DNA of 64,000 nucleotides from Terriglobia bacterium (GCA_030040315.1 JASHTY010000350.1:2781-66780); one strand, 5' to 3'; counted from the stretch's first letter, positions 31,183-53,951 are shown. The notes: a model not told the origin generated them from the letters alone. Made by a program: numbers and translations.

Positions 31183-33006
31183 TCAGTGAATGAACGGACG
31201 GGCGCGAGTTCGATCGATGGTCTGAATAATTAAGGCTTCATCCGGAACGGCGCCGCTCGTAAAACGCGTTGCGTCCCCGGCGACACGAACAAACCCTTCC
31301 TCTGTCCCGCACTTAACGAAAATGAGATCTCGATCGAGAGCCCGCGAATGCAGGATGCAACCAGGAGGAGTGGGCGGGTCACTCAAAAAGGTGCCTTCCT
31401 GGGGCCGGAGGTAATAGCGGTCGGAAACGAGTGACTCAATCGAAGCAGCAAAATCACGTTGTTGAAAATCCTGCGTAATCAAGTGCGGCAGGGCCACAGC
31501 CCGTGTCGCAATCAGTGCCGGAATTCGCGCAACCGCCGAAGCGCCGAAGCGATCAAATTCCGCCTTCTGAAACTCCTCCGGCGCGCGATGGTCAGCGGTT
31601 ATAAACAACAATCCCTTCTGTAGAAATCCGGTTGCCTGCAGCCCCTCGTAGAACGCTCCAATTTGCGCATCGGTCTGCCGTATAACCAGGTCTTCGCCGT
31701 TCAGGCTTCCTCCATTCTGATCTGTGAACGGCCGATGACTCCAGAATGTCTGCACGACCATGAAGAATGGCTTGTCGACAGGCATCTGCGCTACCTCTTT
31801 CAGGGCGATTTGGAAGAGGAGCCGGTCAGGCACAGAGTTAAAAGGGCCGCGGATTTTCTGCCCCGCAAATCGCGGGTCGTCCGATCCAATGATCTTCTTG
31901 AAACCAACCCCCTTGAGCCATCGGTCCTGGCCGATGAACTCCAGGTCCCCCCCAGCCACGTACTCTGTCGCATACCCCTGATCCGAAAGCACTCGCGCAA
32001 TCGGCCGGCTGACATCCATATAGTCGCCAAGCGTCGGTGCACCGAATGGATTGTACTTCGTGTGCTCAGGGACAAATGGAAAGGTTCCCCCCACCAACGA
32101 AACCAACCCTCCTATGGTGGTCCAGCCGTTCGCATAAAAGTTGGTGAGCGCCGTTTCACTTTCGGCGATTTTGTCAAGGCACGGCGTACGGTCTGCCAGG
32201 CCCGAGAAAAACTTTGAATTGTAGGCAGAAAAGCTTTCGACCATCACCAGGATCACATTGAGTCGTTGTTGCCGGCCTGGGTGAATGGTTTCCGGTTCCG
32301 GTGTCGCCAGGATTCGGGCTCGGAAGGCATCGCTGAAATTTGTATAGGTGAAGAAACTTTCGTTGCGCTCAATGAAATTCTGGTAGAGCGCCCTATCATA
32401 GAAAGAATAGACGTACCCGGGAACCGGCACGAGCCACACCATCGTAAGCAGCACTGCGGCGCCCACCAGAAAGCGCTTCGGGAGCGGAGAATCCTGCGGC
32501 TTAGCCAGGAGCAGGTAGAACGCCCTGAGCCAGAGGAATATGACAAGCACCTCAATTGCGTCCTTCCATAGGGAATCTCCCGATGTAGCCCTCAAACCTG
32601 ACCTCAATAACGACTCAATGGCTCGATGCTCAGATGAAAAAGTCACGATATCGGCGGCATACAACCGAGTCCCAAAGAAGTGGAAGGCAAAGACGTCTGC
32701 CGCGTAAATTACCAGGACCAGAACAAGTGCCAACATGCACAGCTTAGAGAAAATCCTTGCTGTGATGCGGGTCATCCCCGGGCGGATATCCGAGCCGAGA
32801 CTCTGTGCGGCAACATACAGGAACAGCACCAATGCGAAAATGGCAGCATCATGTTGGAAGGTAGCGAGGAAAAGTCGCGGGCCCCGTGCGGCCGCCATCA
32901 TGTGCCTCACTCTCCAAATCAATAAAGCTGGAACCAGGACCACGATCGTAAATTCCGGGCGCCAGAGCCAATTGCCCGCCGTTGATTTCCAACCTTGTTG
33001 AGTCAT
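31183..33006 (-). CDS. LTA-synthase/sulfatase-family membrane protein (phosphoglycerol- or phosphoethanolamine-type transferase)
   Basis: An N-terminal multi-TM region followed by an alkaline-phosphatase-superfamily domain beginning LNVILVMVESFSAYNS. Confidence 0.75.
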   Translation of the reverse strand: MTQQGWKSTAGNWLWRPEFTIVVLVPALLIWRVRHMMAAARGPRLFLATFQHDAAIFALVLFLYVAAQSLGSDIRPGMTRITARIFSKLCMLALVLVLVIYAADVFAFHFFGTRLYAADIVTFSSEHRAIESLLRSGLRATSGDSLWKDAIEVLVIFLWLRAFYLLLAKPQDSPLPKRFLVGAAVLLTMVWLVPVPGYVYSFYDRALYQNFIERNESFFTYTNFSDAFRARILATPEPETIHPGRQQRLNVILVMVESFSAYNSKFFSGLADRTPCLDKIAESETALTNFYANGWTTIGGLVSLVGGTFPFVPEHTKYNPFGAPTLGDYMDVSRPIARVLSDQGYATEYVAGGDLEFIGQDRWLKGVGFKKIIGSDDPRFAGQKIRGPFNSVPDRLLFQIALKEVAQMPVDKPFFMVVQTFWSHRPFTDQNGGSLNGEDLVIRQTDAQIGAFYEGLQATGFLQKGLLFITADHRAPEEFQKAEFDRFGASAVARIPALIATRAVALPHLITQDFQQRDFAASIESLVSDRYYLRPQEGTFLSDPPTPPGCILHSRALDRDLIFVKCGTEEGFVRVAGDATRFTSGAVPDEALIIQTIDRTRARPFIH

Positions 33007-33151: not shown

Positions 33152-34564
33152 TCATTTCGCAAGACCAGCCAGAGTGTCGTATTGACGGGTTAAAGCGATC
33201 AGGTTTCGCTGCAAGTAATCTGCTATCTGCTCGATAATGATTTTTTTCCTCTGTTCCACACGACCGAGAGCCTTGACCACATCGTCCGCTGTGAAATCTC
33301 GAATGCGCAAAACGTAATCGCTCTGTTCCACGTCTTCCATCACCCAGTCCACCTTGGGATCGAAGGAAATGGCAATGACGGGTTTTTGAGTCGAAAAACC
33401 AAGAATGACACTGTGCAGACGGCTGGCAATAAGGAAATCAACGTCCCTAAGGGATGCGACAAGCTCCTTCCACGAGGTGATTGAGGGGACATAAATCTGC
33501 CCACCATGCAACTTCCTGCAGTCCTCACCTAGACGGCCAAGCATTTCGGCCGTGACGCTTTCGTCGTCGCCCAACGATGAGGAAACCACGACGATGAAGT
33601 AACCCTTTTGGACGAGTTGCGACACAATCTGCGTCATCTGTTGCAGGTATCGATCGTAATGGGCGGAGTCTTCATACGGCCAGCTTCCGGGCTTGGCATA
33701 AGCAATCGGGCTGATCGCGACAATGGTGCGACTGTGCGACAGCGATCGAATGCCTGCGGGCGGCGGCAATTCCGAGCTGGGTAAGCTGAATGCCAGATCC
33801 GCGACGATTTCGTCACCCTTGGCTCGGGGCAGCAAATCCGCGGCGATATTCTTACTATTCCTGTCCCGATATGATCGATATCGCGCCATCCGAAGCGCTG
33901 AAGAAAGGAAAAAACGCGACGTATGCGAACTTATCTTGCAGGCGCCCACGCTTGCGACGGCATATGGGACTCTTGCCATCCAGGCCAACACTGCCCACTT
34001 AAAGAGCGCGAAAGGGTGGCCCCATGCCCCTCCCCACTCATCATCCAGTTGACCGCCGCCCGACACGATCAACAAATCCTGCCTGCGGAGGAAGCGATAC
34101 CCTGCGACGCTATGACGAAACTCCCGCCAGACGCGCTTTCCAAAGGAGTAAATCGTCTTTAGGCCCCAACCCACGACAGGCACACCCTTAAGCGCCTGTT
34201 TTATTACACTCACATCCAAGCTTTTGTTATTTGACGGTCGCCTTGGGATATCTCCCTCTCCGGGCCGGCGCATCACCTTTCCAGAGTACATTCTGTAAAA
34301 TCGTTGTTCCGATCCGCAAAGTGGGAATGCTTCCGTGCCGTGCCGATCCATAAAATTGTCGCTGTTTAGCGAGAGTCCTGCAAACTGGGCGCGAGGGAGC
34401 CGATGGCGAAGGTGGGCGATCATCGCATCCTGAATGGCGGCATCACCGAGGTTGCCTCCGGTGTACGGCGTCAGCAGTGCGATTCGCGGGCGAGCTCCAT
34501 CAACTTCCTGACCAGGCTGATGAGCAGGAACATGAGCGGAGGAACGCAGTTCATCGATACCCAA
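33152..34564 (-). CDS. polysaccharide pyruvyl transferase family protein
   Basis: IALLTPYTGGNLGDAAIQDAMI at the N-terminus and DFLIASRLHSVILGF near the C-terminus. The start is TTG with GGAG upstream. Confidence 0.78.
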   Translation of the reverse strand: MGIDELRSSAHVPAHQPGQEVDGARPRIALLTPYTGGNLGDAAIQDAMIAHLRHRLPRAQFAGLSLNSDNFMDRHGTEAFPLCGSEQRFYRMYSGKVMRRPGEGDIPRRPSNNKSLDVSVIKQALKGVPVVGWGLKTIYSFGKRVWREFRHSVAGYRFLRRQDLLIVSGGGQLDDEWGGAWGHPFALFKWAVLAWMARVPYAVASVGACKISSHTSRFFLSSALRMARYRSYRDRNSKNIAADLLPRAKGDEIVADLAFSLPSSELPPPAGIRSLSHSRTIVAISPIAYAKPGSWPYEDSAHYDRYLQQMTQIVSQLVQKGYFIVVVSSSLGDDESVTAEMLGRLGEDCRKLHGGQIYVPSITSWKELVASLRDVDFLIASRLHSVILGFSTQKPVIAISFDPKVDWVMEDVEQSDYVLRIRDFTADDVVKALGRVEQRKKIIIEQIADYLQRNLIALTRQYDTLAGLAK

Positions 34565-34680
34565 GCGGTCGGTCGTACTCCCTGCTCCTTATAATCTCAT
34601 TTATGGAAATGCATCAGGCGGCGATTCAGCAGTACGGGCGGCAACGTTGCGACCCTTTCCCGACGTTTATCAACGAGTCT

Positions 34681-35511
34681 TTAGGAACGCGGATTCTCTG
34701 CCGCCACCGCAGACACCGCGCCGCGATGTTCGCTCAGAAAACTGGTGATGTCCTTCCGCAAGCCTGCTCCACCGGCAATGAGGCCCGAGAGTAATGAAGA
34801 TTTGCGATTGAAGGCCGGTCGTGTACCTTCCAGGCTTTGCACATATCCTCCCGCGGATTCGATGAGTGCGACGCCGGCTGCAATATCCCATTCGTTCTTG
34901 GGCGAAAGAGTCCACGTGGCATCTGCTAGTCCGGCCGACACCAACGCAAGCTTGTAAGCCACCGACCCGGTGGGACGGACCACGAAGTGCGGGCTGTGAA
35001 ATATCTCCCACTCACCGCGCTTGACTTCGCTACGGCTGGCGAGCACGACGGCATCGGTAAGACTGTTTTTGCCGGTTACGCGCACCGGCCGTCCGTTATA
35101 CGTGGCTCCGGCGTCAATCGAGCCGAGAAACAACTCTCGCGTGAGGGGATTGTAGATGCCTCCTGCCACCGCGCGCCCGTGTTCGATCCATCCGACTGAA
35201 ATACACCATTCGGGGATCCCTGCCAGAAACTCCAGAGTCCCATCGATCGGATCAACAATCCACACGTGCGTCTTATTCAGACGCTCATGGTCATCCGCGC
35301 TCTCCTCCGAAAGCCAACCTTCACCATCGCGAACCAGCATTTTTCGGAGCAAACCGTTAATCGCTCGATCGGCTTCGGTTACGGGGCCGCGCCCGCCGAG
35401 TTTCTGCGAGGTCTCAATTTTCCCGGGAATAAACGACGAGGCGAGCTCACCCGAGGCTTCAAGCGCTTCGTGTATTCTCGGCAGAATCGGCTGTGCGATG
35501 AATTCGCCCAT
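34681..35511 (-). CDS. cysQ: 3'(2'),5'-bisphosphate nucleotidase (inositol monophosphatase family)
   Basis: Motifs are WLSEES, WIVDPIDGTLEF and WDIAAGVALIESAGG. It sits next to a PAPS-forming enzyme. Confidence 0.8.
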   Translation of the reverse strand: MGEFIAQPILPRIHEALEASGELASSFIPGKIETSQKLGGRGPVTEADRAINGLLRKMLVRDGEGWLSEESADDHERLNKTHVWIVDPIDGTLEFLAGIPEWCISVGWIEHGRAVAGGIYNPLTRELFLGSIDAGATYNGRPVRVTGKNSLTDAVVLASRSEVKRGEWEIFHSPHFVVRPTGSVAYKLALVSAGLADATWTLSPKNEWDIAAGVALIESAGGYVQSLEGTRPAFNRKSSLLSGLIAGGAGLRKDITSFLSEHRGAVSAVAAENPRS

Positions 35512-35529
35512 TGACCGTGAGGGTTCCTT

Positions 35530-36396
35530 TCACGCCCACAACATCCGCGCCCCGCAAACCATCAAGATCAAGTACAGGACAAACCGGAGAGTTTGGCCCG
35601 GCAGCACCGTGCTCAGCTTTACACCCAAGAATGAACCTGGGATGGAACCGATCAGCAACGGAAGCACCAGGGACATGTCCACCATGCCGAGGTGCCAGTC
35701 CAGCAAGCTGGCGAAGCCGGTGAGGGCTACGGCATGCGCAATGTCGGAGGCAACCAGCACCACAGGAGAGCTCTGAACAAACGTCAGCAGCAAGGCCATG
35801 ATGACGCTGCCCGATCCAACCGAGCTCACGCCGACCAAAAATCCTGCGATCAAACCTATAATTACGATCGCAGGGTAAAGCTCGTTGGCAGGCCTCTTCT
35901 TAATCGCGAGAAACTTCTCGATCCTGCCCTGAATAAGCAAGAAGGCGGGAATACAAACCAGCAGAACGCCAATGAATGTTCTAAGAATTGTGTTGACTTC
36001 ACTTCCATACACCGACCGCAAATGTCCCAACAGCAACGCACCAAGAAGTGTACCAGGTAGACTGCCAGCGGCCAGTGCTGCTACCAGCGACCAGTTCACT
36101 GTCTTGTTGCGCCAATGGATCCAACTGGCCGATACCTTCGTGAAAGCATTGAAAGCAGCGGCCGACCCCACTGCGGTGAGAGCCGGCACGCCCAGTCCAA
36201 AGATCAAGATGGGCAACAAGGCCACACCCCCGCCCATTCCGCTCATGCCGATCAGCACTCCGACAAAAGCCCCGATTAATACTTTGCCAACAATAAGCGG
36301 CATCACATCCTCGTATTCGACTTCCAACCTGAATTCAAAGGCGAGGTTTGAAAAATCTTTTCTGCGGAGAGGATTTGCTGCAGCGTCGCCGCCCAT
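35530..36396 (-). CDS. TauE/SafE (TSUP) family anion permease
   Basis: Glycine-rich TM repeats (GVLIGMSGMGGGV, and GFLVGVSSVGSGS in the second half). The ATG at 36396 lies 1 nt after the sat/cysC stop. Alternative starts are at 36429 and 36303. Confidence 0.8.
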   Translation of the reverse strand: MGGDAAANPLRRKDFSNLAFEFRLEVEYEDVMPLIVGKVLIGAFVGVLIGMSGMGGGVALLPILIFGLGVPALTAVGSAAAFNAFTKVSASWIHWRNKTVNWSLVAALAAGSLPGTLLGALLLGHLRSVYGSEVNTILRTFIGVLLVCIPAFLLIQGRIEKFLAIKKRPANELYPAIVIIGLIAGFLVGVSSVGSGSVIMALLLTFVQSSPVVLVASDIAHAVALTGFASLLDWHLGMVDMSLVLPLLIGSIPGSFLGVKLSTVLPGQTLRFVLYLILMVCGARMLWA

Positions 36397-36397
36397 T

Positions 36398-38158
36398 TCA
36401 ATCCGACGCAGCCGAATCAGAGCTTGCATGCCCTTGACGATTCACGCCGATAAACCCCATTTTTTCTAAATGGAGGAAGATCTCCTGGGCAGCCTCTTCA
36501 GGGGTGAGATTGCTTGTGTCGATCGCCACATCAGCATCAGTGGGCGGCTCGTATGGATCAGACACACCCGTAAATTGTTTCACCAGACCCGCCCGCGCCT
36601 TGGCATAAAGACCCTTTCGGTCGCGCGACTCGCAGACCTCAAGGGAAGTCGAGAGGTGGACAAGAATGAATCCGCCATTCGGTTGGATCATCGCCCTGAC
36701 TTCCTTGCGAATGGAATCGTATGGAGCGATTGGGGCGCAGATCGCGATTCCGCCATTCTTGGTAATTTCGGACGCCACAAAACCAATCCGCCGGATGTTG
36801 ATATCTCGATGCTCTCTCGAAAAGCCCAGCTCAGAAGAAAGGTGCTTGCGAACAATGTCGCCGTCCAGCAGGGTAACCGGACGTCCACTCATTTCCAGGA
36901 ATTTTACACGCAGCACGTTGGCGATGGTCGATTTTCCCGAGCCCGAAAGGCCGGTGAATAAAACCGTAAAGCCTTGTCGATGACGGGGGGGGTAGTCGCG
37001 CTGAAGTTCCTTGGCCACATCTGGAAAAGTAAACCACGATGGGATTTCACGGCCTTCGGAAAGACGCCGGCGCAACTCGGTGCCGGAAATACTGAGAGTT
37101 GCTGCACCTTTGGGGACCTCGTTATCGGGAACGTAGGCGTCCTGATCCGAAAGATACACCATCATGCTGAATGGCACCATGGTAACACCCAGCTCGGCCT
37201 GGTGCTTCCCCAGGAGTTCCTGCGCAGCGTATGGCCCATAAAAGGGTTTTCCGTTCTCATCATTTCCGGGGCCTGCATGGTCGCGTCCAACAATCAGGTG
37301 GCTGCATCCGTAGTTCTTCCGAATGATGGCATGCCACACAGCCTCACGTGGCCCCCCCATTCGCATTGCCAGCGGCAACAGCGCTAACCGGGCAGTATCC
37401 TTCGGATATCTCGAAAGGATGGCTTGATAGCATCGAACTCGGATGTAATACTCAACATCGCCGGGTTTGGTCATTCCCACGGAAGGATGTATGAGCAGGT
37501 TTGCTTCGACTTCTTTCGCCGCACGCAAAGTCAACTCCTGGTGGGCACGATGCATGGGGTTACGGGTCTGAAAAGCCACGATCCGGCGCCAGCCGAGGCG
37601 GATAAATTCCGCGCGAAGCTCAGCGGGAGTCAGGCGCAATGCGCGAAAGTCATAATGAGCTGGAAGCTGGAGGCCTTCCACGCGGCCACCCACGTACCAG
37701 GGATGAGTGTTTTTCATGATGTGGGCTGCGCCGGGATGAACGGCGCTCGTAGTTCCGTACACAGCCTCGACCTCCGCGTTGCGATCCGGCTGCCAAACAT
37801 CCTCCACGTGCAACGCGGCGACCATGACGCCTTCAGGATCGCGAAGGGCCACCGTTTTCCCCGCGCCAATCGACCTCGCGAATTCCTCGCTAACGTCCAA
37901 AACAATAGGTATGGGCCATAAAACGCCACTCTTCAGGCGCATGGAACAAGAAACGCCCTCATAGTCGGCGCGTGACATGAATCCGCAGAGCGGGGAAAAG
38001 CCGCCGTTCAATAGCAGCTCCACGTCACAGAGTTGCCGCGGGGTTAAATCCCAAGACGGCCATTCACGCGAAGCAGTTTGCAACTCGGCGCCTCGTTCCG
38101 GCGATGCGACAAGATTTATGAGTTCCCCACCATGAGGCGCGATTAAATGATCAACCAT
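36398..38158 (-). CDS. sat/cysC: bifunctional sulfate adenylyltransferase / adenylylsulfate kinase
   Basis: The ATP-sulfurylase motifs are QTRNPMHRAHQELT and VGRDHAG. The C-terminal APS kinase has the P-loop FTGLSGSGKSTIAN. Confidence 0.93.
   Translation of the reverse strand: MVDHLIAPHGGELINLVASPERGAELQTASREWPSWDLTPRQLCDVELLLNGGFSPLCGFMSRADYEGVSCSMRLKSGVLWPIPIVLDVSEEFARSIGAGKTVALRDPEGVMVAALHVEDVWQPDRNAEVEAVYGTTSAVHPGAAHIMKNTHPWYVGGRVEGLQLPAHYDFRALRLTPAELRAEFIRLGWRRIVAFQTRNPMHRAHQELTLRAAKEVEANLLIHPSVGMTKPGDVEYYIRVRCYQAILSRYPKDTARLALLPLAMRMGGPREAVWHAIIRKNYGCSHLIVGRDHAGPGNDENGKPFYGPYAAQELLGKHQAELGVTMVPFSMMVYLSDQDAYVPDNEVPKGAATLSISGTELRRRLSEGREIPSWFTFPDVAKELQRDYPPRHRQGFTVLFTGLSGSGKSTIANVLRVKFLEMSGRPVTLLDGDIVRKHLSSELGFSREHRDINIRRIGFVASEITKNGGIAICAPIAPYDSIRKEVRAMIQPNGGFILVHLSTSLEVCESRDRKGLYAKARAGLVKQFTGVSDPYEPPTDADVAIDTSNLTPEEAAQEIFLHLEKMGFIGVNRQGHASSDSAASD
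36985..36992. repeat. G8/C8 homopolymer inside sat/cysC at the domain junction
   Basis: The coding strand reads GAC TAC CCC CCC CGT CAT (…DYPPRH…), 10 codons before the APS-kinase P-loop. Confidence 0.9.
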
Positions 38159-38208
38159 ACTGTGAAACCTTCCTCCTGACTTGGTCCCACGCTAACCGGG
38201 CGGGAACC

Positions 38209-39183
38209 TTAGATCTTCAATGCACCTCGAAGCCACCGCTTGACGCCTTTTCCGGCAGATTCCGCTTTGAAGGCTATCGAGGCAGAGATCGAAATCGCTT
38301 TGTTACTAATCGCGGGCTTGTAACCTAGTTCCAGCATTAAGGGTCCTGCAAGGCGCTCAATCAGAGCAATTTCCCGCTTCGAAAGTTCCGAATGCCAACT
38401 GTCCGTTTTGCCGATCCTCCAGCTTTCTTTCCCCATTCTGGCTACATCGAAAGGAGCTCCGTCAAGTTTGCCCGCTTTCAGATTCTGGATACTGCATTCC
38501 TCGACGTAGCGCTGGCAATCGTCCAGGCTTGTCGGAATTCCCAAGCCGGTAAGAATACGGAACAGTGTCTCGGGACCCTCAGAGATCAAATCTTCGTACT
38601 TGACCTCAAGGTAGTTCGGCGTGTCCAGAGGGATTTTGCGTCCCCGGCGGACGTCGGCAATCCACCTTTCGCAGTTCGTGGAGATCCGTGGGGACGCCCA
38701 ATCCGCAGCCCAAGTCCTTGACGCCACGCGAAGTGAAGCCACCACTGACCGGGGATCACGAATGATATGGATGAAGTGAGCATCGGGCCAGGCGTCGAGA
38801 ATCTCCCTCGAACATTGCACGTGGGTGGGGGACTTGTCCAAAACGACCGTCGCGGAGGGCTTGCTCGTCGCAATTTTCGCGAAGACAAATCCCGAGGCAA
38901 GGCGCAATAAGGAGCGATATTCATCATCGTTCAGAACTTTCACCACGCCTACTTTTGCGCCGGTCCTTCGATCATCAGTCCATCGTTCAACCATTGACCG
39001 CAAAAACGCACTGAATAAGTGCGTCTCTTGAGCAGTCACCACCGAAGGGGATCGGGCAAGCAGGAGTTGAAGCCATGTCGTGCCACTGCGCGGTGCGCCG
39101 ACGAGAAATGCCAGTTTCTTGCCGTGGAGTATTTCTTCGGCCCGGTCCAGAGTGGGCGTCATTGCTCGAAGGTCGTTTTCCAT
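38209..39183 (-). CDS. sulfotransferase family protein
   Basis: The 5'-PSB-type loop is LVGAPRSGTTWLQLLL and the 3'-PB-type motif is IHIIRDPRSVVAS. Confidence 0.85.
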   Translation of the reverse strand: MENDLRAMTPTLDRAEEILHGKKLAFLVGAPRSGTTWLQLLLARSPSVVTAQETHLFSAFLRSMVERWTDDRRTGAKVGVVKVLNDDEYRSLLRLASGFVFAKIATSKPSATVVLDKSPTHVQCSREILDAWPDAHFIHIIRDPRSVVASLRVASRTWAADWASPRISTNCERWIADVRRGRKIPLDTPNYLEVKYEDLISEGPETLFRILTGLGIPTSLDDCQRYVEECSIQNLKAGKLDGAPFDVARMGKESWRIGKTDSWHSELSKREIALIERLAGPLMLELGYKPAISNKAISISASIAFKAESAGKGVKRWLRGALKI

Positions 39184-39290: not shown

Positions 39291-40085
39291 CTAGGTGCCA
39301 TCCTTTACGAATATTAAATATTCACTTTGACCCGGCAGGTTTGGGGCCAGGAAGCTCGCATGCAAAGCGCACCCTCGCTGGCCAAAGTAGGAGATCAGCA
39401 AATCTCGTGGAATCACGCACCGGGAATAGGTGCGGCATGCAATCCACTTCTCGATCGTTTCGTCATTCATGCACCTGTCCGAGACGACATCAAAAACGAT
39501 CTGCCCCCCTGGCCGGACGACGCGGACCATCTCCTTGAAGTATTGGAAGGTTACTACAAATGGGAGATAAACAAACACTTTGTGCGCATGAACCAGTTCC
39601 ATCGATCCACTCGCGGTGTCGCGCAGACTTGTGCCGTCCGCCTCGCGGGCGATCACATGATATGTCCGCGCCAGCCAATTCGACCACTCCGGGTCAGTTT
39701 CATATATTTCGTAAGAATGCGGGGCGCACATTTTCTGGACGATATCAAGGTAACGGCCGGAACCCGGGCCGATTTCACATATGCTGTCAATCTTCCCCTG
39801 GAACACGCCGAAACCCGCCATCTGATCGACTGTCGCCTGTGTTGTCCCGGGCACGTGATACTTCGAGTCAATGTAATCTCCAACTGACAATCCCGCTTTC
39901 CTTGCGCCATCCAGCGTCTCACGAAATGGGATAAACGACCTTACCGCGTCCCTCTCACCAGGACGTACCAATTGAAACCCCGTCCGGCCCAGCAGGGCAT
40001 TAAACTTATTGCGAGCAGCTTTGCGATAGGTACTCATCTTTTCTTCATGGGAGGCCAGGGCGCAAAAACCGATGCGGCGTACCAC
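39291..40085 (-). CDS. class I SAM-dependent methyltransferase
   Basis: The EIGPGSGRY glycine-rich SAM loop, with a later acidic/VRPGG block. The start is GTG at 40085, with an ATG alternative at 40037. Confidence 0.72.
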   Translation of the reverse strand: MVRRIGFCALASHEEKMSTYRKAARNKFNALLGRTGFQLVRPGERDAVRSFIPFRETLDGARKAGLSVGDYIDSKYHVPGTTQATVDQMAGFGVFQGKIDSICEIGPGSGRYLDIVQKMCAPHSYEIYETDPEWSNWLARTYHVIAREADGTSLRDTASGSMELVHAHKVFVYLPFVVTFQYFKEMVRVVRPGGQIVFDVVSDRCMNDETIEKWIACRTYSRCVIPRDLLISYFGQRGCALHASFLAPNLPGQSEYLIFVKDGT

Positions 40086-40121: not shown

Positions 40122-41393
40122 TTATTTGACCTCCAACTTTCCACTGCCGCTACCTTCGCTTACCAGACCTGTAAGACTTTTTTCCCAAGCTGGATGGACC
40201 TCCTGCCGTGTAACTTTCGGAAAGCAATTTACACCGCCTCTCACGTCTTCGTCGTGACTGACGTAGATGGTTACCGCAGGCTCCCACCTGTCATAACTTG
40301 TCTGAGTATCGTACCGGAATACGCCAACGCAAGGGTGAAACATGCCAGCCGTCATATTCAGGCTGAGTTCAAATGTGCAAGTGAAAACTTCCCCGGCCTC
40401 CAGGTTAAAGTTGCCATGGCCGAGCCGTTCGGTCGAAGTGTTGAACACCACCTGATGCTCCTCATCCTTGATGTAGAACTGAACCGCCAGCTTCTTGCAG
40501 AGCGATCGTCCAGTGACTTCTATGTCGATCCAGACTTTATCACCCGACTGAAAGCGCGTGCCTTCACCATGCTCGTCCCGAATTCTTACGCTTGTAATAA
40601 GGGCCTGCTTTTCGCTGACGTCCTGCAGCGTGCTCAACTGGGCCCGGTTCAAATAGGTGGAAATGACCTCCTCAACGGGACCGATTTTCAGCACACGGCC
40701 GCGGTCCAGAAAGAGGCACCTCTGGCAGAATTCGGACACCGTTTTCATGTTATGCGATACGAACAAAACCGTTGCCCCGCCCCGGATCACTTCCTTCATG
40801 CGCTCCACACATCTGCGCTGGAAAGCCCAATCTCCCACACTCAAGACTTCATCCACCAGCAGGACGTCAGGGTTCACATGACAGGCAACAGAAAAACCCA
40901 GGCGTGCATACATTCCTGACGAGTATCTCTTCACAGGCGTATCGATGAATTCCTCCAGCCCGGAGAATCCAACAATATCGTCGAACTTGGCCGTAATCTC
41001 CGCACGAGTCATACCCAAAATGGCGCCGTACAGATAGATATTTTCTCGCCCCGTCAGGTCCTGGTGGAAGCCTGCCGCCAACTCGATCAGGGCCGATACT
41101 CTGCCCTTAACCTGAAATGTGCCGCGGCTTGGCTTCATGACGCGGCTTAGAAGCTTCAACATGGTGCTCTTCCCTGCCCCATTGTGGCCAATGATGCCGA
41201 AGGCTTCGCCCTCGGCCACTTCGAACGAAATGTCTCGCAATGCCCAGAACTCCCGCCGGTCGCTTTCACTCAGGTCTTCCTGACGGAACATCCGTCCCGT
41301 CAAGGCGGGTATGAGGTCGCGCAGGGAATTAAAGACCTCGCCTTTATGGAATTTCTTGTAAACGTGCTCCATTCGGAGCGCAACATCAGCCAT
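40122..41393 (-). CDS. wzt: polysaccharide ABC exporter ATP-binding protein with C-terminal Wzt-type carbohydrate-binding domain
   Basis: It has Walker A GHNGAGKST, signature YSSGMYARLGF (Wzt/TagH/KpsT style) and Walker B LLVDEV, plus a beta-rich C-terminal extension of about 170 aa. Confidence 0.88.
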   Translation of the reverse strand: MADVALRMEHVYKKFHKGEVFNSLRDLIPALTGRMFRQEDLSESDRREFWALRDISFEVAEGEAFGIIGHNGAGKSTMLKLLSRVMKPSRGTFQVKGRVSALIELAAGFHQDLTGRENIYLYGAILGMTRAEITAKFDDIVGFSGLEEFIDTPVKRYSSGMYARLGFSVACHVNPDVLLVDEVLSVGDWAFQRRCVERMKEVIRGGATVLFVSHNMKTVSEFCQRCLFLDRGRVLKIGPVEEVISTYLNRAQLSTLQDVSEKQALITSVRIRDEHGEGTRFQSGDKVWIDIEVTGRSLCKKLAVQFYIKDEEHQVVFNTSTERLGHGNFNLEAGEVFTCTFELSLNMTAGMFHPCVGVFRYDTQTSYDRWEPAVTIYVSHDEDVRGGVNCFPKVTRQEVHPAWEKSLTGLVSEGSGSGKLEVK

Positions 41394-41462
41394 AAGACTA
41401 AACTTTCAAGTCGCTATCGGTGAATTGGAAAAAATGTTCCCCAAAGGCAAAACGGCTCTTCG

Positions 41463-42248
41463 TCAGATACTCTCCGCAAATGCCGGCTCAAGATGTTTGA
41501 AGAAAACGTACCCACCGAGAATAGCCACAAGACCAAAGCCGAGGCTGTATCCGAGCCAGCGAAGGTCCGGCGGCTCATGCAACGCGACACATGCGCTGAG
41601 TCCGTCCAGGATAGGAGCGATGGGGTTAAGCAACAGCCATTTTCCCTTTGCGCCCAGCATGCTGGTGTCGTAAAAGACCGGTGTAAAAAAAATCCCAAAG
41701 GTCAGCAGGATTTCCACGATGTACTTCACATCCCGAAAAAACAGGCTTGCGGCAGAGACGATCATGCCGACGCCGGCGGCCAAGATCACCATCATCGCGA
41801 TCAACACAGGAGTCCAGAGGAGGTACACACTCCAGCCGATCCGAAAGGCCAGGAGTAAAGCAATCAGCGCCACGGAAGCCACAAGAAAATCGAACAGGCT
41901 GGCCAGCACCGCGGCCATCGGAAAAATCTCTTTTGGGAAATAAACCTTGGTCACCAGGTTTGGATTGAGGACGAGGCTGTTGCAGCCGAACCTGATGCTG
42001 GAAACCAGAAACGCCCAGGGCAGCGATTTGACGGCAACGCTGGCGATGTCGGAAGGCTCCAGATGTTTGCCTGCGATCAGGACATACCCGTACCGAACCA
42101 GGACCCCGGCCATAACAATCAGAACAGGCATCAAAATCGCCCAGAGAAACCCCATCACCGATTGCTTGTACCGAACCTTGATGTCGCGGTAGGCAAGCAT
42201 GTAGAGAAGCTCCCGGTATTTGATCAGCTCGCGAAGATTCTCTCTCAC
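41463..42248 (-). CDS. wzm: ABC-2 type polysaccharide exporter permease
   Basis: The N-terminus is ELIKYRELLYMLAYRDIKVRYKQSVMGFLWAIL, with 6 TM segments and a length of 261 aa. Confidence 0.88.
   Translation of the reverse strand: MRENLRELIKYRELLYMLAYRDIKVRYKQSVMGFLWAILMPVLIVMAGVLVRYGYVLIAGKHLEPSDIASVAVKSLPWAFLVSSIRFGCNSLVLNPNLVTKVYFPKEIFPMAAVLASLFDFLVASVALIALLLAFRIGWSVYLLWTPVLIAMMVILAAGVGMIVSAASLFFRDVKYIVEILLTFGIFFTPVFYDTSMLGAKGKWLLLNPIAPILDGLSACVALHEPPDLRWLGYSLGFGLVAILGGYVFFKHLEPAFAESI
41685..41692. repeat. A8/T8 homopolymer inside wzm
   Basis: The coding strand reads GGG ATT TTT TTT ACA (G-I-F-F-T). Confidence 0.9.
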
Positions 42249-42321: not shown

Positions 42322-43686
42322 CTAATTAAACCTTCGATTAACCGGTTTCACCGGCCGTCCGTGCAAATGTTTGTCAATCCCCTCATCCAGGGCCTTGCGA
42401 TAAATGATGTGCGCCTCGTACACTGCCTCCGCGGTCCGATCGATATCCTGGTCGGTATGCGAGAAGCTCATCACAAACGATGGGGCAATGATGCCTCGCC
42501 GGATCAATTCCTGCAGGAACAGCGTGCGGAAAGCCTCCGACCGCTTGCCGTCCTGGTCCCGAGTTGCAAAAACCAGGTTGCAAGGCCGCCCGATCATTTC
42601 AAAAAATCCCTGCAGGCGGTTTTCCGAAACCGACCGGTTCACGAGCGCGCGCAGGCGCTCACCCTGCCGCCAAAGATGTTCCACCACCTTACGCTCACGG
42701 TAAATCCGCAGCGTTTCCAAGGAAGCCGCCAACGCATGACCTTCTGCGCCATGGGTCGTGGAGAGCAAGAAGACCCTGGGCTGGTCGTGGTCCAACCCGC
42801 CCAACCGCATGATCTCCCGCTTGCCCGCCAGCGCGGCGATGGCAAATCCGTTCCCGAGCGCTTTGCCGAATGTGGACAAATGCGGAACGACGCCATGAAA
42901 CTTTTGCGCCCCGCCCAGGTGCCAGCGAAATCCTGTAATCATCTCGTCGAAGATCAGAACGGCTCCACGCTCCTCGCACAGGGCCTTGACGCCGCTCAGG
43001 TAGCAGGGCTCGGGCGGGACATCGGCTTCCGCCTCGAATAAAACGCAGGCAATCCGCCCGGGAAACCGGTCGAAAAGGTCGCGCAAACTCTCCAGGTTGT
43101 TGTAGCGGAACTTCAATGTCATTTCCCTGATGACCTCAGGAATTCCCGCATTCATCTGCATCGTTCCGATAAACCAATCGTCGAATGAATAGAATGGCTG
43201 ATCACCGCAAATTGCGATCAGATCCCGGCCGGTATATGCGCGGGCCAGTTTCACGGCCGCGGTGGTGACGTCGGAGCCGTTCTTGGCAAACTTCACCATG
43301 TCAGCTCCGTCGATCACCTCCAATACCGCCTCCGCAAGTTCGATTTCGACCGCTGCCGGCCGGGTGAAGTTGACGCCACGCTGCATTTGGCGATACGCCG
43401 CTTCAACAACTGGCTCGTAGGCATGTCCAAGGGTGACGGCGCGCAATCCCATTCCGTATTCGATGAACTCATTTCCATCGATGTCCCACACGTGGCAGCC
43501 CTTGCCGCGCTCGATGAATCCCGGAGCCATTTCCGGGAACTGATCGTCGCCTTTTGCATACGTATGCGCTCCGCCCGGAATGAGCTTGTGAGCCTTCGGC
43601 CGAAGGGCGCGCGAATTCGGATAGTCCCGCTGGGGAGAGGGGGCTGCAACCGCCGGCCCGCCCGTTGGGTTTTCAACCTTGGCCAC
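42322..43686 (-). CDS. class III (glutamate-1-semialdehyde aminomutase-like) PLP aminotransferase
   Basis: LIFDEMITGFR and STFGKALGNG (PLP lysine) motifs. Length is 454 aa. Confidence 0.88.
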   Translation of the reverse strand: MAKVENPTGGPAVAAPSPQRDYPNSRALRPKAHKLIPGGAHTYAKGDDQFPEMAPGFIERGKGCHVWDIDGNEFIEYGMGLRAVTLGHAYEPVVEAAYRQMQRGVNFTRPAAVEIELAEAVLEVIDGADMVKFAKNGSDVTTAAVKLARAYTGRDLIAICGDQPFYSFDDWFIGTMQMNAGIPEVIREMTLKFRYNNLESLRDLFDRFPGRIACVLFEAEADVPPEPCYLSGVKALCEERGAVLIFDEMITGFRWHLGGAQKFHGVVPHLSTFGKALGNGFAIAALAGKREIMRLGGLDHDQPRVFLLSTTHGAEGHALAASLETLRIYRERKVVEHLWRQGERLRALVNRSVSENRLQGFFEMIGRPCNLVFATRDQDGKRSEAFRTLFLQELIRRGIIAPSFVMSFSHTDQDIDRTAEAVYEAHIIYRKALDEGIDKHLHGRPVKPVNRRFN

Positions 43687-43700
43687 AACACGTTCCTCAG

Positions 43701-44363
43701 TTAAACGGCGGACTTAAGAATTACCTTCCGGGCGTAAAAGGCCTCTGCCAGACCGCTGGGGGAGTTCGACTCCATGCCTCTGATGCGCATCAAGCCCATA
43801 AATGTAGACCGGTCGAACCACTTCTTCGCTTGCTGGGACCCGAAGGCTTCAAACAGAATATCGACCTTGCGTTCGCACAGCCGCTCCTCAAGAGGCACAA
43901 AAAAGTTGGGACGCCCCAGATCGCCGTCCCACTTCGGGATCTCATACTCGAGGATCAGATGATTCCGGAAAGTATTCCAGGTCAACTCTGAAAGCAGCCG
44001 GTGATCCTGGTGAGCATCGCCTTGCCAGTGGGTAAAGACCAGGTCCGGATTCACCCGGCCCTTAAGTTCTTCGAAGAATTCCTTCACCTCGCTGCCGTTG
44101 TAAGGCAGAAATCCATCCCGGCAGGTTTTGAGAAGTAGCTCCTTTTCGCACCCGGCAGTGAACAATTCAGCGGCCTTCGTTGCTTCCGCCCCGCGGACTC
44201 CCGGAGCGCTGAAAACCACCCAGGAAAATTTTATGTTGGGAAGAGTCTTCTGAAGATGGAGCAGAGTTCCACCGCAGCCAATCTCGATGTCGTCCGCATG
44301 GGCGCCCAGGCAGAGTACAACGGTCTGACCCGAATCCTTCCCCGAAAGGCTCAGCCTCATCAC
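43701..44363 (-). CDS. PIG-L/LmbE family N-deacetylase
   Basis: The VLCLGAHADDIEIGCGGT motif. Its start overlaps the rfbF stop by 4 nt. Confidence 0.85.
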   Translation of the reverse strand: MMRLSLSGKDSGQTVVLCLGAHADDIEIGCGGTLLHLQKTLPNIKFSWVVFSAPGVRGAEATKAAELFTAGCEKELLLKTCRDGFLPYNGSEVKEFFEELKGRVNPDLVFTHWQGDAHQDHRLLSELTWNTFRNHLILEYEIPKWDGDLGRPNFFVPLEERLCERKVDILFEAFGSQQAKKWFDRSTFMGLMRIRGMESNSPSGLAEAFYARKVILKSAV

Positions 44364-45166: not shown

Positions 45167-45175
45167 ATTCCCCCC

Positions 45176-46105: not shown

Positions 46106-46180
46106 CAGTTACCTCCCCATCACGCGATTTCAATGGTGGGCACGAAGAAAATCAATATGCACGCCCGAACGCCGGCACTT

Positions 46181-48533: not shown

Positions 48534-48593
48534 CAGCGTTCACCCTTTTTTGTTGGAGAGGTCCCAACCTGAAAACCCACGTCGATGGGACCC

Positions 48594-50491: not shown

Positions 50492-50516
50492 CGGGAAAAC
50501 CGCCGGGCCTGACGGA

Positions 50517-52654: not shown

Positions 52655-52700
52655 TCCGGATCAAACCAGGTTTCTCAGACTGGAATCGGCGTGCAGTGGG

Positions 52701-53918: not shown

Positions 53919-53951
53919 AAAAGGTGGAAATACCCCCGGGCTCTGAGAGTT

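What the first reader, a model, noticed from the sequence alone, without database searches (positions are those of the whole stretch)
34681..39183. Self-contained sulfate-activation and sulfotransferase module inside a polysaccharide locus (predicted sulfated glycan)
Four consecutive minus-strand genes, read in transcription order, form the module. They encode a sulfotransferase (PRSGTTW and RDPRSVVAS PAPS-binding motifs), a fused ATP sulfurylase/APS kinase (QTRNPMHRAHQ, GRDHAG, GLSGSGKST), a TauE/TSUP anion permease starting 1 nt after the sat/cysC stop, and CysQ (WIVDPIDGT, WDIAAG). Established knowledge: Sat plus CysC make PAPS, sulfotransferases consume it, and CysQ removes the inhibitory product PAP. 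No PAPS reductase (cysH) or sulfite reductase is present in the window. The block sits between a pyruvyl transferase and wzm/wzt. The inference is that it is dedicated to glycan sulfation rather than cysteine synthesis. Genetically defined sulfated bacterial polysaccharide systems are few (rhizobial Nod-factor/LPS sulfation, mycobacterial sulfolipids, a cyanobacterial sulfated EPS). A permease-coupled version in this lineage would be new.
Basis: partly seen in the sequence, partly recalled or inferred. Interest (0 to 1): 0.75.

Follow-up and report, generated by a model that had tools for sequence, protein, structure and literature searches.

The report
Sulfate-activation cassette beside a glycan sulfotransferase
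A soil acidobacterium carries, inside a large surface-sugar gene island, a sulfotransferase followed by a widely conserved three-gene kit that most likely imports sulfate, makes the donor PAPS and clears the by-product; this predicts a sulfated surface glycan, but the design is already known from other bacteria.

Summary
Four co-directional minus-strand genes at 34681-39183 encode a PAPS-type sulfotransferase, a bifunctional Sat/CysC, a TauE/TSUP permease and an IMPase-family phosphatase.

The "module" is two units with different histories:
- Sat/CysC->TauE->IMPase is a conserved operon. It occurs in 34 of the 55 related metagenome loci with enough downstream sequence.
- The sulfotransferase belongs to a conserved wzm-wzt(CBM)-methyltransferase-sulfotransferase-pyruvyltransferase core. 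None of 86 other loci with this sulfotransferase has the cassette.

The cassette associates with sulfotransferases and glycan genes, not with cysH (1 of 89 loci). A close relative has another sulfotransferase followed by the same cassette in a different polysaccharide locus. The same assembly also holds a 98%-identical stand-alone Sat/CysC. This favours a sulfation-dedicated copy, but the window's own genome could not be checked.

"CysQ" is not established by sequence or fold; it rests on synteny.

Published Cobetia and Vibrio capsule clusters already combine PAPS genes and sulfotransferases (Cobetia also cysQ and a permease). This is therefore a new member or variant in Acidobacteriota, not a new kind. 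An untested possibility is that sulfate is a chain-end cap read by the Wzt CBM.

The parts
38209..39183 (-). PAPS-dependent sulfotransferase (324 aa) with no TM segment and a cationic amphipathic C-terminal helix (residues 295-321). Predicted glycan sulfotransferase acting at the cytoplasmic face of the membrane.
   Evidence: Pfam hits. Invariant R32/G34/T35/T36/W37, E53 and R142/S150 in 41 homologues. AF2 model pLDDT 92.4. All top PDB fold matches are PAP/PAPS-bound sulfotransferases. Amphipathic helix with muH 0.66 and charge +5. Immediate neighbours in about 73 loci are glycan genes.
36398..38158 (-). Bifunctional ATP sulfurylase/APS kinase (Sat/CysC, 586 aa), a PAPS synthase.
   Evidence: NF004040 scores 903.6 bits against a cut-off of 669. 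PUA_2, ATP-sulfurylase and APS_kinase domains. Catalytic motifs and an intact P-loop. 78-84% identical to hundreds of Terriglobia proteins.
35530..36396 (-). TauE/TSUP-family permease (288 aa; alternative start at 36429). Predicted sulfate importer, with a start codon 1 nt after the sat/cysC stop.
   Evidence: PF01925 E=4e-41. At least 7 TM-like segments. Conserved between Sat/CysC and the phosphatase in 34 of 55 loci. In L173 a sulfate ABC importer lies beside the Sat/CysC-phosphatase pair in place of TauE. C. glutamicum CysZ is a TSUP-family sulfate importer (PMC5840216).
34681..35511 (-). IMPase-superfamily phosphatase (276 aa). Predicted PAP (3'-phosphoadenosine-5'-phosphate) phosphatase, functionally 'CysQ-like'.
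   Evidence: PF00459 E=4.5e-45. CysQ and HisN profiles both score below cut-off. SuhB/IMPase are nearest in PDB by sequence and fold. It follows Sat/CysC in 41 of 55 loci. NCBI names 61-69% identical homologues CysQ, while JGI names them IMPase.
40122..42248 (-). Wzm (41463-42248) and Wzt with a C-terminal carbohydrate-binding domain (40122-41393): the ABC exporter of the glycan presumed to be sulfated.
   Evidence: ABC2_membrane; ABC_tran plus Wzt_C at 62.3 bits. Best PDB match is full-length Aquifex Wzt, extending into the CBM. Syntenic with the sulfotransferase in all 6 Acidobacteriota genome loci with enough upstream sequence.
39291..40085 (-). SAM-dependent methyltransferase between wzt and the sulfotransferase (context gene).
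   Evidence: Methyltransf_11/23/25. 52-63% identical homologues at the same position in L001-L006 and L012.
33152..34564 (-). Polysaccharide pyruvyl transferase. In related loci it directly follows the sulfotransferase.
   Evidence: PS_pyruv_trans E=1e-24. 57-65% identical homologues immediately downstream of the sulfotransferase in L001-L006, L012, L014 and L016.

Best explanation
A PAPS-supply cassette sits directly downstream of a membrane-peripheral glycan sulfotransferase, inside an ABC-transporter-dependent (Wzm/Wzt) polysaccharide locus of a Terriglobia (Acidobacteriota) bacterium.

Proposed mechanism:
1. The TSUP permease imports sulfate.
2. Sat/CysC converts sulfate and 2 ATP to PAPS.
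3. The sulfotransferase, tethered to the inner face of the membrane by its C-terminal amphipathic helix, transfers sulfate to the lipid-linked glycan while the glycan is still cytoplasmic.
4. The IMPase-family enzyme hydrolyses the inhibitory product PAP to AMP.
5. Wzm/Wzt exports the finished glycan, which is probably also pyruvylated and methylated.

What is shown: gene identities at the domain level; conservation of the three-gene cassette; its association with sulfotransferases and glycan genes; and the fact that its placement in this locus is exceptional.

What is inferred: the acceptor (a glycan); the direction and substrate of the permease; the PAP specificity of the phosphatase; and that this copy mainly serves sulfation.
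For: - Domain and motif identities.
- Sulfotransferase fold with PAP-bound structural neighbours.
- Tight co-directional packing without terminators.
- Cassette conservation: the trio is present in 34 of 55 informative metagenome loci, and Sat followed by the phosphatase in 7 more.
- Nearest neighbours of the cassette: Polysacc_deac_1 12, GT2 9, GT4 4, AsnB-like 3, Sulfotransfer_1 3, with no PAPS_reduct or NIR_SIR among the top 25 families.
- Sulfotransferase-like ORFs lie within 10 kb in 12 of 86 Sat/CysC loci, several with 2-3 copies; L008 adds one more by precomputed Pfam.
- The CysH signature occurs near only 1 of 89 Sat/CysC loci.
- L172 carries a different sulfotransferase followed by Sat/CysC (84% identical), TauE (73%) and IMPase (73%) in a Wzx/exosortase polysaccharide locus. 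L007, from the same assembly, holds a stand-alone Sat/CysC that is 98% identical in protein and 97.6% in DNA over the ORF only.
- Immediate neighbours of the sulfotransferase family are all glycan genes.
- Precedents with chemically proven sulfated capsules: PMC11766843, PMC11641403.
Against: - The rest of the source genome could not be searched. This could be its only sulfate-activating system, with cysH elsewhere; an uptake-PAPS-PAPase trio also fits PAPS-dependent cysteine synthesis.
- The phosphatase is closer to SuhB/IMPase than to solved CysQ enzymes.
- TauE-family members include exporters.
- No chemistry is available for any acidobacterial glycan; a literature search found nothing.
- It is not proven that the two Sat/CysC copies in ERZ25039512 lie in one genome. 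The ERZ accession may be a per-sample assembly.
Confidence: 0.68

Rival explanations
1. Dual-use or housekeeping. The cassette is the genome's only sulfate-activation system. It feeds a PAPS reductase (cysH) located elsewhere for cysteine synthesis, as well as any sulfotransferases. Its position in the glycan island is then incidental gene-order shuffling.
For: Sat/CysC is 78-84% identical across hundreds of Terriglobia proteins, which is more conserved than the sulfotransferase, as expected for a core gene. Its closest orthologues (L007, L010, L011) are stand-alone in non-glycan contexts. In L173 it sits beside a cysPTWA-like sulfate importer and an Rrf2 regulator, a typical assimilation context. 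E. coli-type PAPS assimilation also needs CysQ (established knowledge). The cassette has no compositional anomaly.
Against: cysH is near only 1 of 89 Sat/CysC loci. The cassette's neighbours are enriched in glycan genes and sulfotransferases. The near-identical second copy inside a sulfotransferase module in a close relative argues for dedicated copies. The published Vibrio cluster shows the same 'second copy' logic (PMC11641403).
Confidence: 0.27
2. The sulfotransferase installs a sulfate on the non-reducing terminal sugar only. This cap terminates polymerisation and is recognised by the Wzt carbohydrate-binding module as the export signal, analogous to the methyl, methyl-phosphate, Kdo or pyruvate caps of E. 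coli and Klebsiella O antigens.
For: Wzt carries a Wzt_C CBM (62 bits) and aligns to full-length Aquifex Wzt, and CBM-bearing Wzt marks capped systems (PMC11231755, PMC9445017). The sulfotransferase is the only candidate modifier always present next to wzt in the 6 informative Acidobacteriota genome loci. It lies within 3 kb on the same strand as wzm-wzt in 22 of 79 loci across several phyla. Those Wzt proteins are long (397-447 aa), some with Wzt_C. In Aeromonas salmonicida a sulfotransferase gene follows wzt, yet no sulfate is seen in the bulk O antigen (PMC4483657), as expected for a substoichiometric cap.
Against: The family is equally often next to Wzx-type flippases (8 versus 8 immediate neighbours), and a large alphaproteobacterial subclade has no wzm/wzt nearby. 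The sulfotransferase has no extended coiled-coil ruler, only a 27-residue terminal helix. A dedicated PAPS factory seems excessive for one sulfate per chain. A methyltransferase and a pyruvyl transferase are equally plausible cappers.
Confidence: 0.18
3. The sulfotransferase acts on a non-glycan acceptor, for example protein tyrosine (RaxST/TPST-like) or a lipid or small molecule, and its position in the glycan locus is coincidental.
For: The best fold and profile matches in PDB are tyrosylprotein sulfotransferases (TM about 0.62-0.67; 56 bits) and polyketide sulfotransferases.
Against: The similarity is limited to the PAPS-binding two-thirds (residues 19-215) at about 20% identity. The only NCBIfam hit is NoeE, a Nod-factor sugar sulfotransferase. 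No peptide-export or precursor genes are nearby. Immediate neighbours across about 73 loci are all glycan genes. No solved bacterial glycan sulfotransferase of this clade appears among the PDB matches, so the ranking reflects what the database holds.
Confidence: 0.06
4. The TauE/TSUP protein is an exporter (of sulfite, a sulfonate, or excess sulfate or PAP-derived products) rather than a sulfate importer.
For: The Pfam family is named for the sulfite/sulfoacetate exporters TauE/SafE. TSUP substrates are mostly unknown (PMC5840216).
Against: Nothing in the cassette produces sulfite or a sulfonate. The permease is translationally coupled to Sat/CysC in dozens of loci. In L173 a sulfate ABC importer lies beside the Sat/CysC-phosphatase pair in place of TauE. 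C. glutamicum CysZ, a TSUP member, is a genetically shown sulfate importer (PMC5840216).
Confidence: 0.12

Closest known systems
Cobetia marina KMM 1449 capsular polysaccharide gene cluster (PMC11766843)
   Same: A polysaccharide locus exported by an ABC transporter. It contains sulfotransferase genes plus its own PAPS-supply operon with a PAP phosphatase (cysQ) and a sulfate permease. The product is chemically shown to be sulfated (Rha2S) and glycerophosphorylated (Man6PGro). The window likewise has an OpgB/LtaS-like phosphoglycerol-transferase homologue next door (31183-33006).
   Different: Cobetia uses heterodimeric CysD/CysN-CysC, a canonical CysQ, a differently annotated sulfate permease and a Kps-type group 3 capsule exporter. 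The window uses a Sat-type ATP sulfurylase fused to CysC, a TSUP permease, an IMPase-like phosphatase and Wzm/Wzt with a CBM. The phylum also differs (Gammaproteobacteria versus Acidobacteriota).
Vibrio sp. KMM 8419 sulfated capsule cluster (PMC11641403)
   Same: Second copies of the PAPS-synthesis genes lie inside a polysaccharide cluster with sulfotransferases. [quoted passage not shown]
   Different: The Vibrio genes are cysN/cysD/cysC, and no cysQ or permease is reported in the cluster. In the window's genome the existence of a second copy is unverified.
Rhizobial nodPQ + nodH / noeE (Nod-factor sulfation) and Xanthomonas raxPQ + raxST (from established knowledge, not re-tested here)
   Same: Dedicated PAPS-synthase paralogues are genetically linked to a specific sulfotransferase that modifies a secreted molecule. 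NoeE is the only NCBIfam family hit by the window's sulfotransferase (47.9 bits, far below its cut-off).
   Different: The acceptors are lipo-chitooligosaccharide or a peptide, not a polymer. The synthases are CysDN-type. No permease or PAP phosphatase is part of the unit.
WbdD / Wzt-CBM capped O-antigen systems of E. coli O8/O9a and Klebsiella (PMC3482155, PMC11231755, PMC9445017)
   Same: Wzm and Wzt with a C-terminal carbohydrate-binding module, and small-group transferases (methyl-, pyruvyl-, and here sulfo-) encoded right next to wzt. Modification occurs in the cytoplasm before export.
   Different: The known caps are methyl, methyl-phosphate, Kdo and pyruvate; sulfate has not been described. 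Terminators typically carry a long coiled-coil ruler, which the sulfotransferase model lacks.
Corynebacterium glutamicum CysZ (a TSUP-family sulfate importer in the fpr2-cysIXHDNYZ assimilation cluster; cited through PMC5840216)
   Same: A TSUP/TauE-family permease genetically coupled to sulfate-activating enzymes.
   Different: The C. glutamicum cluster is assimilatory and includes cysH and sulfite reductase. The acidobacterial cassette lacks these and is associated with sulfotransferases.

Membership tests
PAPS-dependent sulfotransferase (Pfam Sulfotransfer_3 / Sulfotransfer_1) | Profile score above the curated cut-off | tested here: met
   PF13469 scores 111.7 bits (cut-off 27) and PF00685 scores 61.7 bits (cut-off 22).
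PAPS-dependent sulfotransferase (Pfam Sulfotransfer_3 / Sulfotransfer_1) | 5'-phosphosulfate-binding loop (P-K/R-S-G-T-T-W) and 3'-phosphate motif (R-x7-S), conserved in the family | tested here: met
   PRSGTTW at residue 31 and RDPRSVVAS at 142. R32, G34, T35, T36, W37, R142 and S150 are invariant in 41 homologues.
PAPS-dependent sulfotransferase (Pfam Sulfotransfer_3 / Sulfotransfer_1) | Sulfotransferase fold; candidate catalytic base | tested here: met
   AF2 pLDDT 92.4. All top 50 PDB fold matches are sulfotransferase-fold proteins, many of them PAP/PAPS-bound. The invariant E53 aligns with the 'EET' Glu of TPST2; that this Glu is the TPST2 catalytic base is from memory.
PAPS-dependent sulfotransferase (Pfam Sulfotransfer_3 / Sulfotransfer_1) | Sulfotransfer activity and identity of the acceptor | not testable with these tools
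   Needs enzymology. A glycan acceptor is inferred from gene context only.
Bifunctional sulfate adenylyltransferase/adenylylsulfate kinase (NCBIfam NF004040) | Equivalog profile above cut-off over the full length, with intact catalytic motifs in both halves | tested here: met
   903.6 bits against a cut-off of 669, residues 5-570. QTRNPMHRAH, GRDHAG, P-loop GLSGSGKST and LDGD are all present.
TSUP / TauE-SafE permease (PF01925) | Profile above cut-off; polytopic membrane protein | tested here: met
   141.6 bits against a cut-off of 32.6. At least 7 TM-like segments.
TSUP / TauE-SafE permease (PF01925) | Transported substrate and direction (sulfate import) | not testable with these tools
   Inferred from conserved coupling to Sat/CysC and from a sulfate ABC importer lying beside the cassette in place of TauE in L173.
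CysQ 3'(2'),5'-bisphosphate nucleotidase (TIGR01331 / NF008182) | Equivalog profile score above cut-off | tested here: not met
   TIGR01331 scores 94.3 bits against a cut-off of 228.8, and NF008182 scores 65.6 against 379. HisN scores higher (110.6 bits, also below its cut-off).
CysQ 3'(2'),5'-bisphosphate nucleotidase (TIGR01331 / NF008182) | Closer to solved PAP phosphatases than to IMPase/SuhB | tested here: not met
   By sequence or profile, SuhB/IMPase score 105-125 bits, B. thetaiotaomicron CysQ 102 and M. tuberculosis CysQ 74. By fold, the top 50 matches are all SuhB/IMPase/HisN-type.
CysQ 3'(2'),5'-bisphosphate nucleotidase (TIGR01331 / NF008182) | Functional linkage to PAPS metabolism (works like CysQ) | tested here: met
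   It follows Sat/CysC (with or without TauE) in 41 of 55 informative loci. NCBI names 61-69% identical homologues CysQ. IMPase superfamily membership is firm (PF00459, 154.7 bits).
Tyrosylprotein sulfotransferase (TPST / RaxST-like) | Specific similarity beyond the PAPS core, and a peptide-substrate or secretion context | tested here: not met
   The alignment covers only residues 19-215 at about 20% identity, with TM 0.62-0.67. Polyketide sulfotransferases score similarly. Neighbours are glycan genes.
Capped-glycan ABC-export system (WbdD/WbbB-type terminator plus Wzt-CBM) | Wzt with a C-terminal carbohydrate-binding module | tested here: met
   Wzt_C scores 62.3 bits (cut-off 30.4), residues 261-387. 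The alignment to full-length Aquifex Wzt reaches residue 358.
Capped-glycan ABC-export system (WbdD/WbbB-type terminator plus Wzt-CBM) | [quoted passage not shown] | tested here: not met
   The sulfotransferase model has only one 27-residue C-terminal helix. The methyltransferase and pyruvyl transferase were not modelled.
Capped-glycan ABC-export system (WbdD/WbbB-type terminator plus Wzt-CBM) | Modification restricted to the non-reducing terminus and required for export | not testable with these tools
   Needs glycan structure and genetics.
Polysaccharide gene cluster with an in-cluster PAPS supply (Cobetia/Vibrio type) | Sulfotransferase, PAPS synthase, PAP phosphatase, sulfate permease and exporter in one co-directional cluster | tested here: met
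   The parts are analogous but not orthologous to those of Cobetia (PMC11766843).
Polysaccharide gene cluster with an in-cluster PAPS supply (Cobetia/Vibrio type) | A sulfated polysaccharide product | not testable with these tools
   No chemistry is available. No paper on sulfated acidobacterial glycans was found.

The most novel reading that the evidence does not exclude
This sulfotransferase family adds a sulfate cap to the non-reducing end of ABC-transporter-exported glycans. The cap is read by the Wzt carbohydrate-binding module as the chain-termination and export signal. That would be a new capping chemistry. It is present in Acidobacteriota and, judging from the recurrent wzm-wzt-sulfotransferase adjacency, also in Actinomycetota (including Bifidobacterium breve MAGs), Gemmatimonadota and Phycisphaerae. 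In the window it would be backed by its own PAPS factory.
Probability: 0.15. Interest if true: 0.7.

Novelty: new member of a known kind. Interest (0 to 1): 0.36.

Why it matters
Acidobacteriota are among the most abundant soil bacteria, yet no sulfated glycan has been described from them. The Sat/CysC-TSUP-IMPase cassette is widespread in soil metagenomes. It is linked to sulfotransferases and polysaccharide genes rather than to sulfate reduction.

If its members really feed sulfotransferases, sulfated surface glycans could be common in these organisms. That could matter for soil ester-sulfate pools, aggregation, water retention and metal binding.

Practically, the cassette is a compact three-gene PAPS-supply kit (uptake, activation and by-product removal). 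It could be useful for engineering sulfated polysaccharides. It also gives testable functional assignments for one TSUP permease clade and one IMPase clade. The design principle itself is already published for marine Gammaproteobacteria, so a specialist would not be surprised.

Tried and rejected
- Looking up the window's own contig by exact protein failed. Only a 4.5 kb sibling contig was found (GCA_030047395.1, 99.7% identical). The whole-genome test for a second sat/cysH could therefore not be run.
- The genome-contig scan did not contain the source genome (best hit 66% identity).
- P0125, an NCBI-only Sat/CysC at 84% identity, was checked as a possible second copy in the same MAG. It belongs to an unrelated assembly.
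- I tried to settle 'CysQ versus IMPase' by NCBIfam, by PDB sequence, profile and fold search, and by source names. None discriminates, and if anything they favour SuhB/IMPase. I rely on synteny instead.
- Cassette insertion by a mobile element or foreign DNA: no compositional anomaly in GC or GC3, and no terminators at the junctions. Not pursued further.
- Rfam and tRNA scans of the window found nothing.
- The Pfam 'Sulfatase' hit next door (31183-33006) was considered as a desulfation partner and rejected. NCBIfam places it with OpgB/LtaS-type phosphoglycerol transferases.
- PDB sequence searches with the methyltransferase and the pyruvyl transferase gave no hits.
- The Mann/Kimber/Whitfield 2019 survey of capping chemistries is not in the held library, so I could not check whether sulfate caps were already proposed there.
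- A tyrosine-sulfotransferase reading was considered because of the fold matches, and rejected on context.

Full report
**1. Observation**

The four minus-strand ORFs are present exactly as described.

- **Sulfotransferase (38209-39183, 324 aa).** It matches Sulfotransfer_3 (E=7.7e-32) and Sulfotransfer_1.
- **Sat/CysC (36398-38158, 586 aa).** It has PUA_2, ATP-sulfurylase and APS_kinase domains. It passes the NCBIfam equivalog for bifunctional Sat/CysC, at 903.6 bits against a cut-off of 669.
- **TauE/TSUP permease (35530-36396).** PF01925, E=4e-41. Its second ATG lies 1 nt after the Sat/CysC stop. That is the start NCBI uses.
- **IMPase-superfamily protein (34681-35511).** PF00459, E=4.5e-45.

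All quoted motifs were located. The intergenic gaps are 50, 1 and 18 nt, and no terminator-like sites lie in them.

The window is a glycan island of about 50 kb read almost entirely on the minus strand. It holds Wzm/Wzt, a Wzx-like flippase, many glycosyltransferases and many decorating enzymes. It contains no PAPS reductase or sulfite reductase and no CysH signature.

**2. Organism**

Close homologues are named Terriglobia, Acidobacteriaceae or Candidatus Sulfotelmatobacter. The source genome is not among the species representatives searched. A sibling NCBI MAG contig (GCA_030047395.1) is 99.7% identical over 34662-39129.

**3. The block is two units**

*The cassette.* I scanned metagenomes with Sat/CysC, which returned 80 loci at 67-82% identity. 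Of these, 55 have at least 1.9 kb of downstream sequence:

| Arrangement downstream of Sat/CysC | Loci |
|---|---|
| Sat/CysC -> TauE -> IMPase, same order, strand and spacing as the window | 34 |
| Sat/CysC -> IMPase, no TauE | 7 |
| Sat/CysC -> TauE only | 2 |
| Neither | 12 |

. The three-gene cassette is therefore a conserved, widespread operon.

*The sulfotransferase.* It belongs to another conserved unit. In related Acidobacteriota loci the order is nucleotide-sugar genes, then wzm, wzt (with CBM), an optional methyltransferase, the sulfotransferase and a pyruvyl transferase. There the sulfotransferase is followed directly by the pyruvyl transferase. In none of 86 other loci carrying a homologue of this sulfotransferase is Sat/CysC, TauE or the IMPase gene found within 10 kb.

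The window's peculiarity is the placement of the cassette between the sulfotransferase and the pyruvyl transferase. The cassette is compositionally indistinguishable from its neighbours.

**4. What the cassette is for**

- **cysH.** A CysH-type signature occurs near only 1 of 89 Sat/CysC loci, and that locus has a different arrangement.
- **Nearest neighbours.** I took a Pfam census of the two nearest genes on each side of the cassette (124 ORFs from 42 of the 47 cassette loci). It is led by polysaccharide deacetylase (12), phosphopantetheinyl transferase (10), GT2 (9), GT4 (4), AsnB-like (3) and Sulfotransfer_1 (3). No PAPS reductase or sulfite reductase appears among the 25 most frequent families.
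- **Sulfotransferases nearby.** A profile search finds sulfotransferase-like ORFs within 10 kb in 12 of 86 Sat/CysC loci, several with two or three. L008 adds another by precomputed Pfam.
- **L172.** This locus carries a sulfotransferase of a different subfamily, then Sat/CysC (84% identical to the window's), TauE (73%) and IMPase (73%). It lies inside a Wzx/FkbH/exosortase polysaccharide locus.
- **Two copies in one assembly.** The assembly holding L172 (ERZ25039512) also holds L007, a stand-alone Sat/CysC. The two proteins are 98% identical. The DNA identity (97.6%) covers just the ORF, and the flanks are unrelated. This looks like duplication of the housekeeping gene into a sulfation module. 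I could not prove that the two contigs belong to one genome.
- **L173.** Here Sat/CysC -> IMPase lies beside a sulfate ABC importer and an Rrf2 regulator. This supports a sulfate-uptake role for TauE, and it shows that some copies sit in an assimilation-like setting.

**5. The individual proteins**

*Sulfotransferase.* The model is confident (pLDDT 92.4), and all top PDB matches are PAP/PAPS-bound sulfotransferases. The best are tyrosylprotein sulfotransferases. However, the similarity covers only the PAPS-binding two-thirds at about 20% identity, and polyketide sulfotransferases score similarly.

The PSB loop, the R-x7-S motif and E53 are invariant in 41 homologues. E53 aligns to the TPST2 'EET' Glu. 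The protein has no signal peptide or TM segment. It ends in a strongly amphipathic cationic helix, which fits action at the cytoplasmic membrane face on a lipid-linked glycan.

Across about 73 loci its immediate neighbours are all glycan genes: GT2 19, Wzx-type flippase 8, Wzt-type ATPase 8 (5 with Wzt_C), methyltransferases 8, pyruvyl transferase 4 and GT4 4. This argues for a carbohydrate acceptor.

*'CysQ'.* This name is not justified by sequence or fold:
- The CysQ and HisN profiles both score below their cut-offs.
- SuhB/IMPase are nearest by sequence, by profile and by fold.
- Annotation sources disagree.

A PAP-phosphatase role is inferred from its conserved position after Sat/CysC.

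**6. Mechanism proposed**

1. The TSUP permease imports sulfate.
2. Sat/CysC makes PAPS.
3. The membrane-peripheral sulfotransferase sulfates the und-PP-linked glycan in the cytoplasm.
4. The IMPase-like enzyme removes PAP.
5. Wzm/Wzt exports the product.

The domain identities, the conservation of the cassette and its associations are shown. The acceptor, the transport direction, the PAP specificity and dedication of this copy are inferred. My confidence is about 0.68.

The main rival, at about 0.27, is that this is the genome's only sulfate-activating system and also feeds cysH elsewhere.

**7. The cap idea**

Wzt carries a Wzt_C carbohydrate-binding module and aligns to full-length Aquifex Wzt. 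In characterised systems such a module reads a non-reducing-end cap (methyl, methyl-phosphate or Kdo) added before export (PMC11231755, PMC9445017).

The sulfotransferase is the modifier most constantly adjacent to wzt in Acidobacteriota. It lies within 3 kb of wzm-wzt in 22 of 79 loci across phyla, next to long Wzt proteins. In Aeromonas salmonicida a wzt-adjacent sulfotransferase coexists with an O antigen in which no sulfate was seen (PMC4483657). A sulfate cap is therefore conceivable.

Against it:
- The family is equally linked to Wzx flippases.
- The sulfotransferase lacks a coiled-coil ruler.
- A methyltransferase and a pyruvyl transferase are alternative cappers.

I give the cap model about 0.15-0.18.

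**8. Comparison with what is known, and novelty**

- The Cobetia marina capsule cluster contains cysN/cysC, cysD, cysQ and a sulfate permease, together with sulfotransferases and an ABC exporter. Its product is Rha2S/Man6PGro (PMC11766843).
- The Vibrio KMM 8419 cluster contains second copies of cysC/N/D. Its authors call PAPS genes plus sulfotransferases a hallmark of sulfated polysaccharide synthesis (PMC11641403).
- Rhizobial nodPQ/nodH and Xanthomonas raxPQ/raxST follow the same logic (from established knowledge).
- A TSUP sulfate importer coupled to sulfate activation is known from C. glutamicum (PMC5840216).

The window's version uses non-orthologous parts: Sat-CysC fusion, TSUP and IMPase-like. 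It comes from a phylum with no described sulfated glycan (one search found none). I rate it a new member of a known kind, bordering on a new variant, with interest 0.36.

Noticed in passing
window 31183-33006 (-): A 607-aa protein hits Pfam 'Sulfatase', but NCBIfam places it with OpgB/LtaS-type phosphoglycerol transferases and it has an N-terminal membrane region. It is probably a glycerophosphate-decorating enzyme, not a sulfatase. A 62% identical homologue lies near the sulfotransferase in L028. It parallels the sulfated and glycerophosphorylated Cobetia capsule.
   Followed up: partly
window 42322-50719 (-): A conserved nucleotide-sugar cassette is syntenic with the sulfotransferase core in L001-L004, L012, L014 and L028, and partly in a betaproteobacterial locus (L049). 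It comprises a class-III aminotransferase, PIG-L deacetylase, nucleotidyltransferase, a 309-aa ORF without Pfam hit (45176-46105), a sugar C-methyltransferase, a dehydratase/epimerase, a DUF4910/DUF2172/HTH_47 protein and an RmlC-like epimerase. It probably makes an unusual C-methylated amino-deoxy sugar.
   Followed up: partly
window 40122-42248 and 51149-59382 (-): The island encodes two export or assembly routes: Wzm/Wzt, and a Wzx-like flippase (Polysacc_synt_3, 51149-52654) with a Wzy_C-like protein (57952-59382). There may be two different glycans, and which one is sulfated is assumed from adjacency only.
   Followed up: no
window 21188-23047, 30030-31142, 59402-60322, 62084-63973 (-): Further decorating enzymes are present: a NodU/CmcH-type carbamoyltransferase, an Acyl_transf_3 O-acyltransferase, an FkbM methyltransferase and an AsnB-like amidotransferase. 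They suggest a heavily substituted, polyanionic glycan.
   Followed up: no
L059, L061, L073, L079, L087, L089 (Actinomycetes, including a Bifidobacterium breve MAG); L034 (Gemmatimonadota); L068 (Phycisphaerae); L064: Distant homologues (31-44% identity) of the sulfotransferase sit just downstream of wzm and a long Wzt (397-447 aa), sometimes with a GT2 gene between them. Some of these Wzt have a recognisable Wzt_C domain; others have an unrecognised C-terminal extension of about 150 aa.
   Followed up: partly
L007 10001-11761 versus L172 10001-11761 (both from ERZ25039512): Two Sat/CysC genes are 97.6% identical in DNA over 1813 bp, which is the ORF only, with unrelated flanks. One is stand-alone next to proB/proA-like genes. 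The other is inside a sulfotransferase-TauE-IMPase module. This indicates a recent duplication, gene conversion or transfer.
   Followed up: partly
L173 11987-16832: In this relative the Sat/CysC-IMPase pair lies next to a divergently oriented sulfate ABC importer (substrate-binding protein, two permeases, ATPase with TOBE domain) and an Rrf2 regulator, in place of TauE.
   Followed up: no
window 36398-38158 (-): NCBI annotates Sat/CysC as 561 aa (P0121), but 586-aa homologues cover the full length and the PUA_2 match starts at residue 6. The longer start at 38158 is therefore more likely. Likewise TauE has two in-frame ATGs (36429 and 36396).
   Followed up: partly
window 3690-9621: A PAS-GGDEF diguanylate cyclase and a sigma-54-dependent two-component system (histidine kinase 8029-9621, response regulator 6539-7909) lie at the left edge of the island. 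They are possible regulators of glycan production. Similar sigma-54 two-component genes also flank the stand-alone Sat/CysC in L007 and L010.
   Followed up: no
cassette loci L092-L171: A 4'-phosphopantetheinyl transferase (ACPS/AASDHPPT_N) is among the commonest immediate neighbours of the Sat/CysC-TauE-IMPase cassette (10 of 124 neighbour ORFs). The association is unexplained. One unverified thought is that such transferases release 3',5'-ADP, chemically the same as PAP, so a shared PAP phosphatase might be the link.
   Followed up: no
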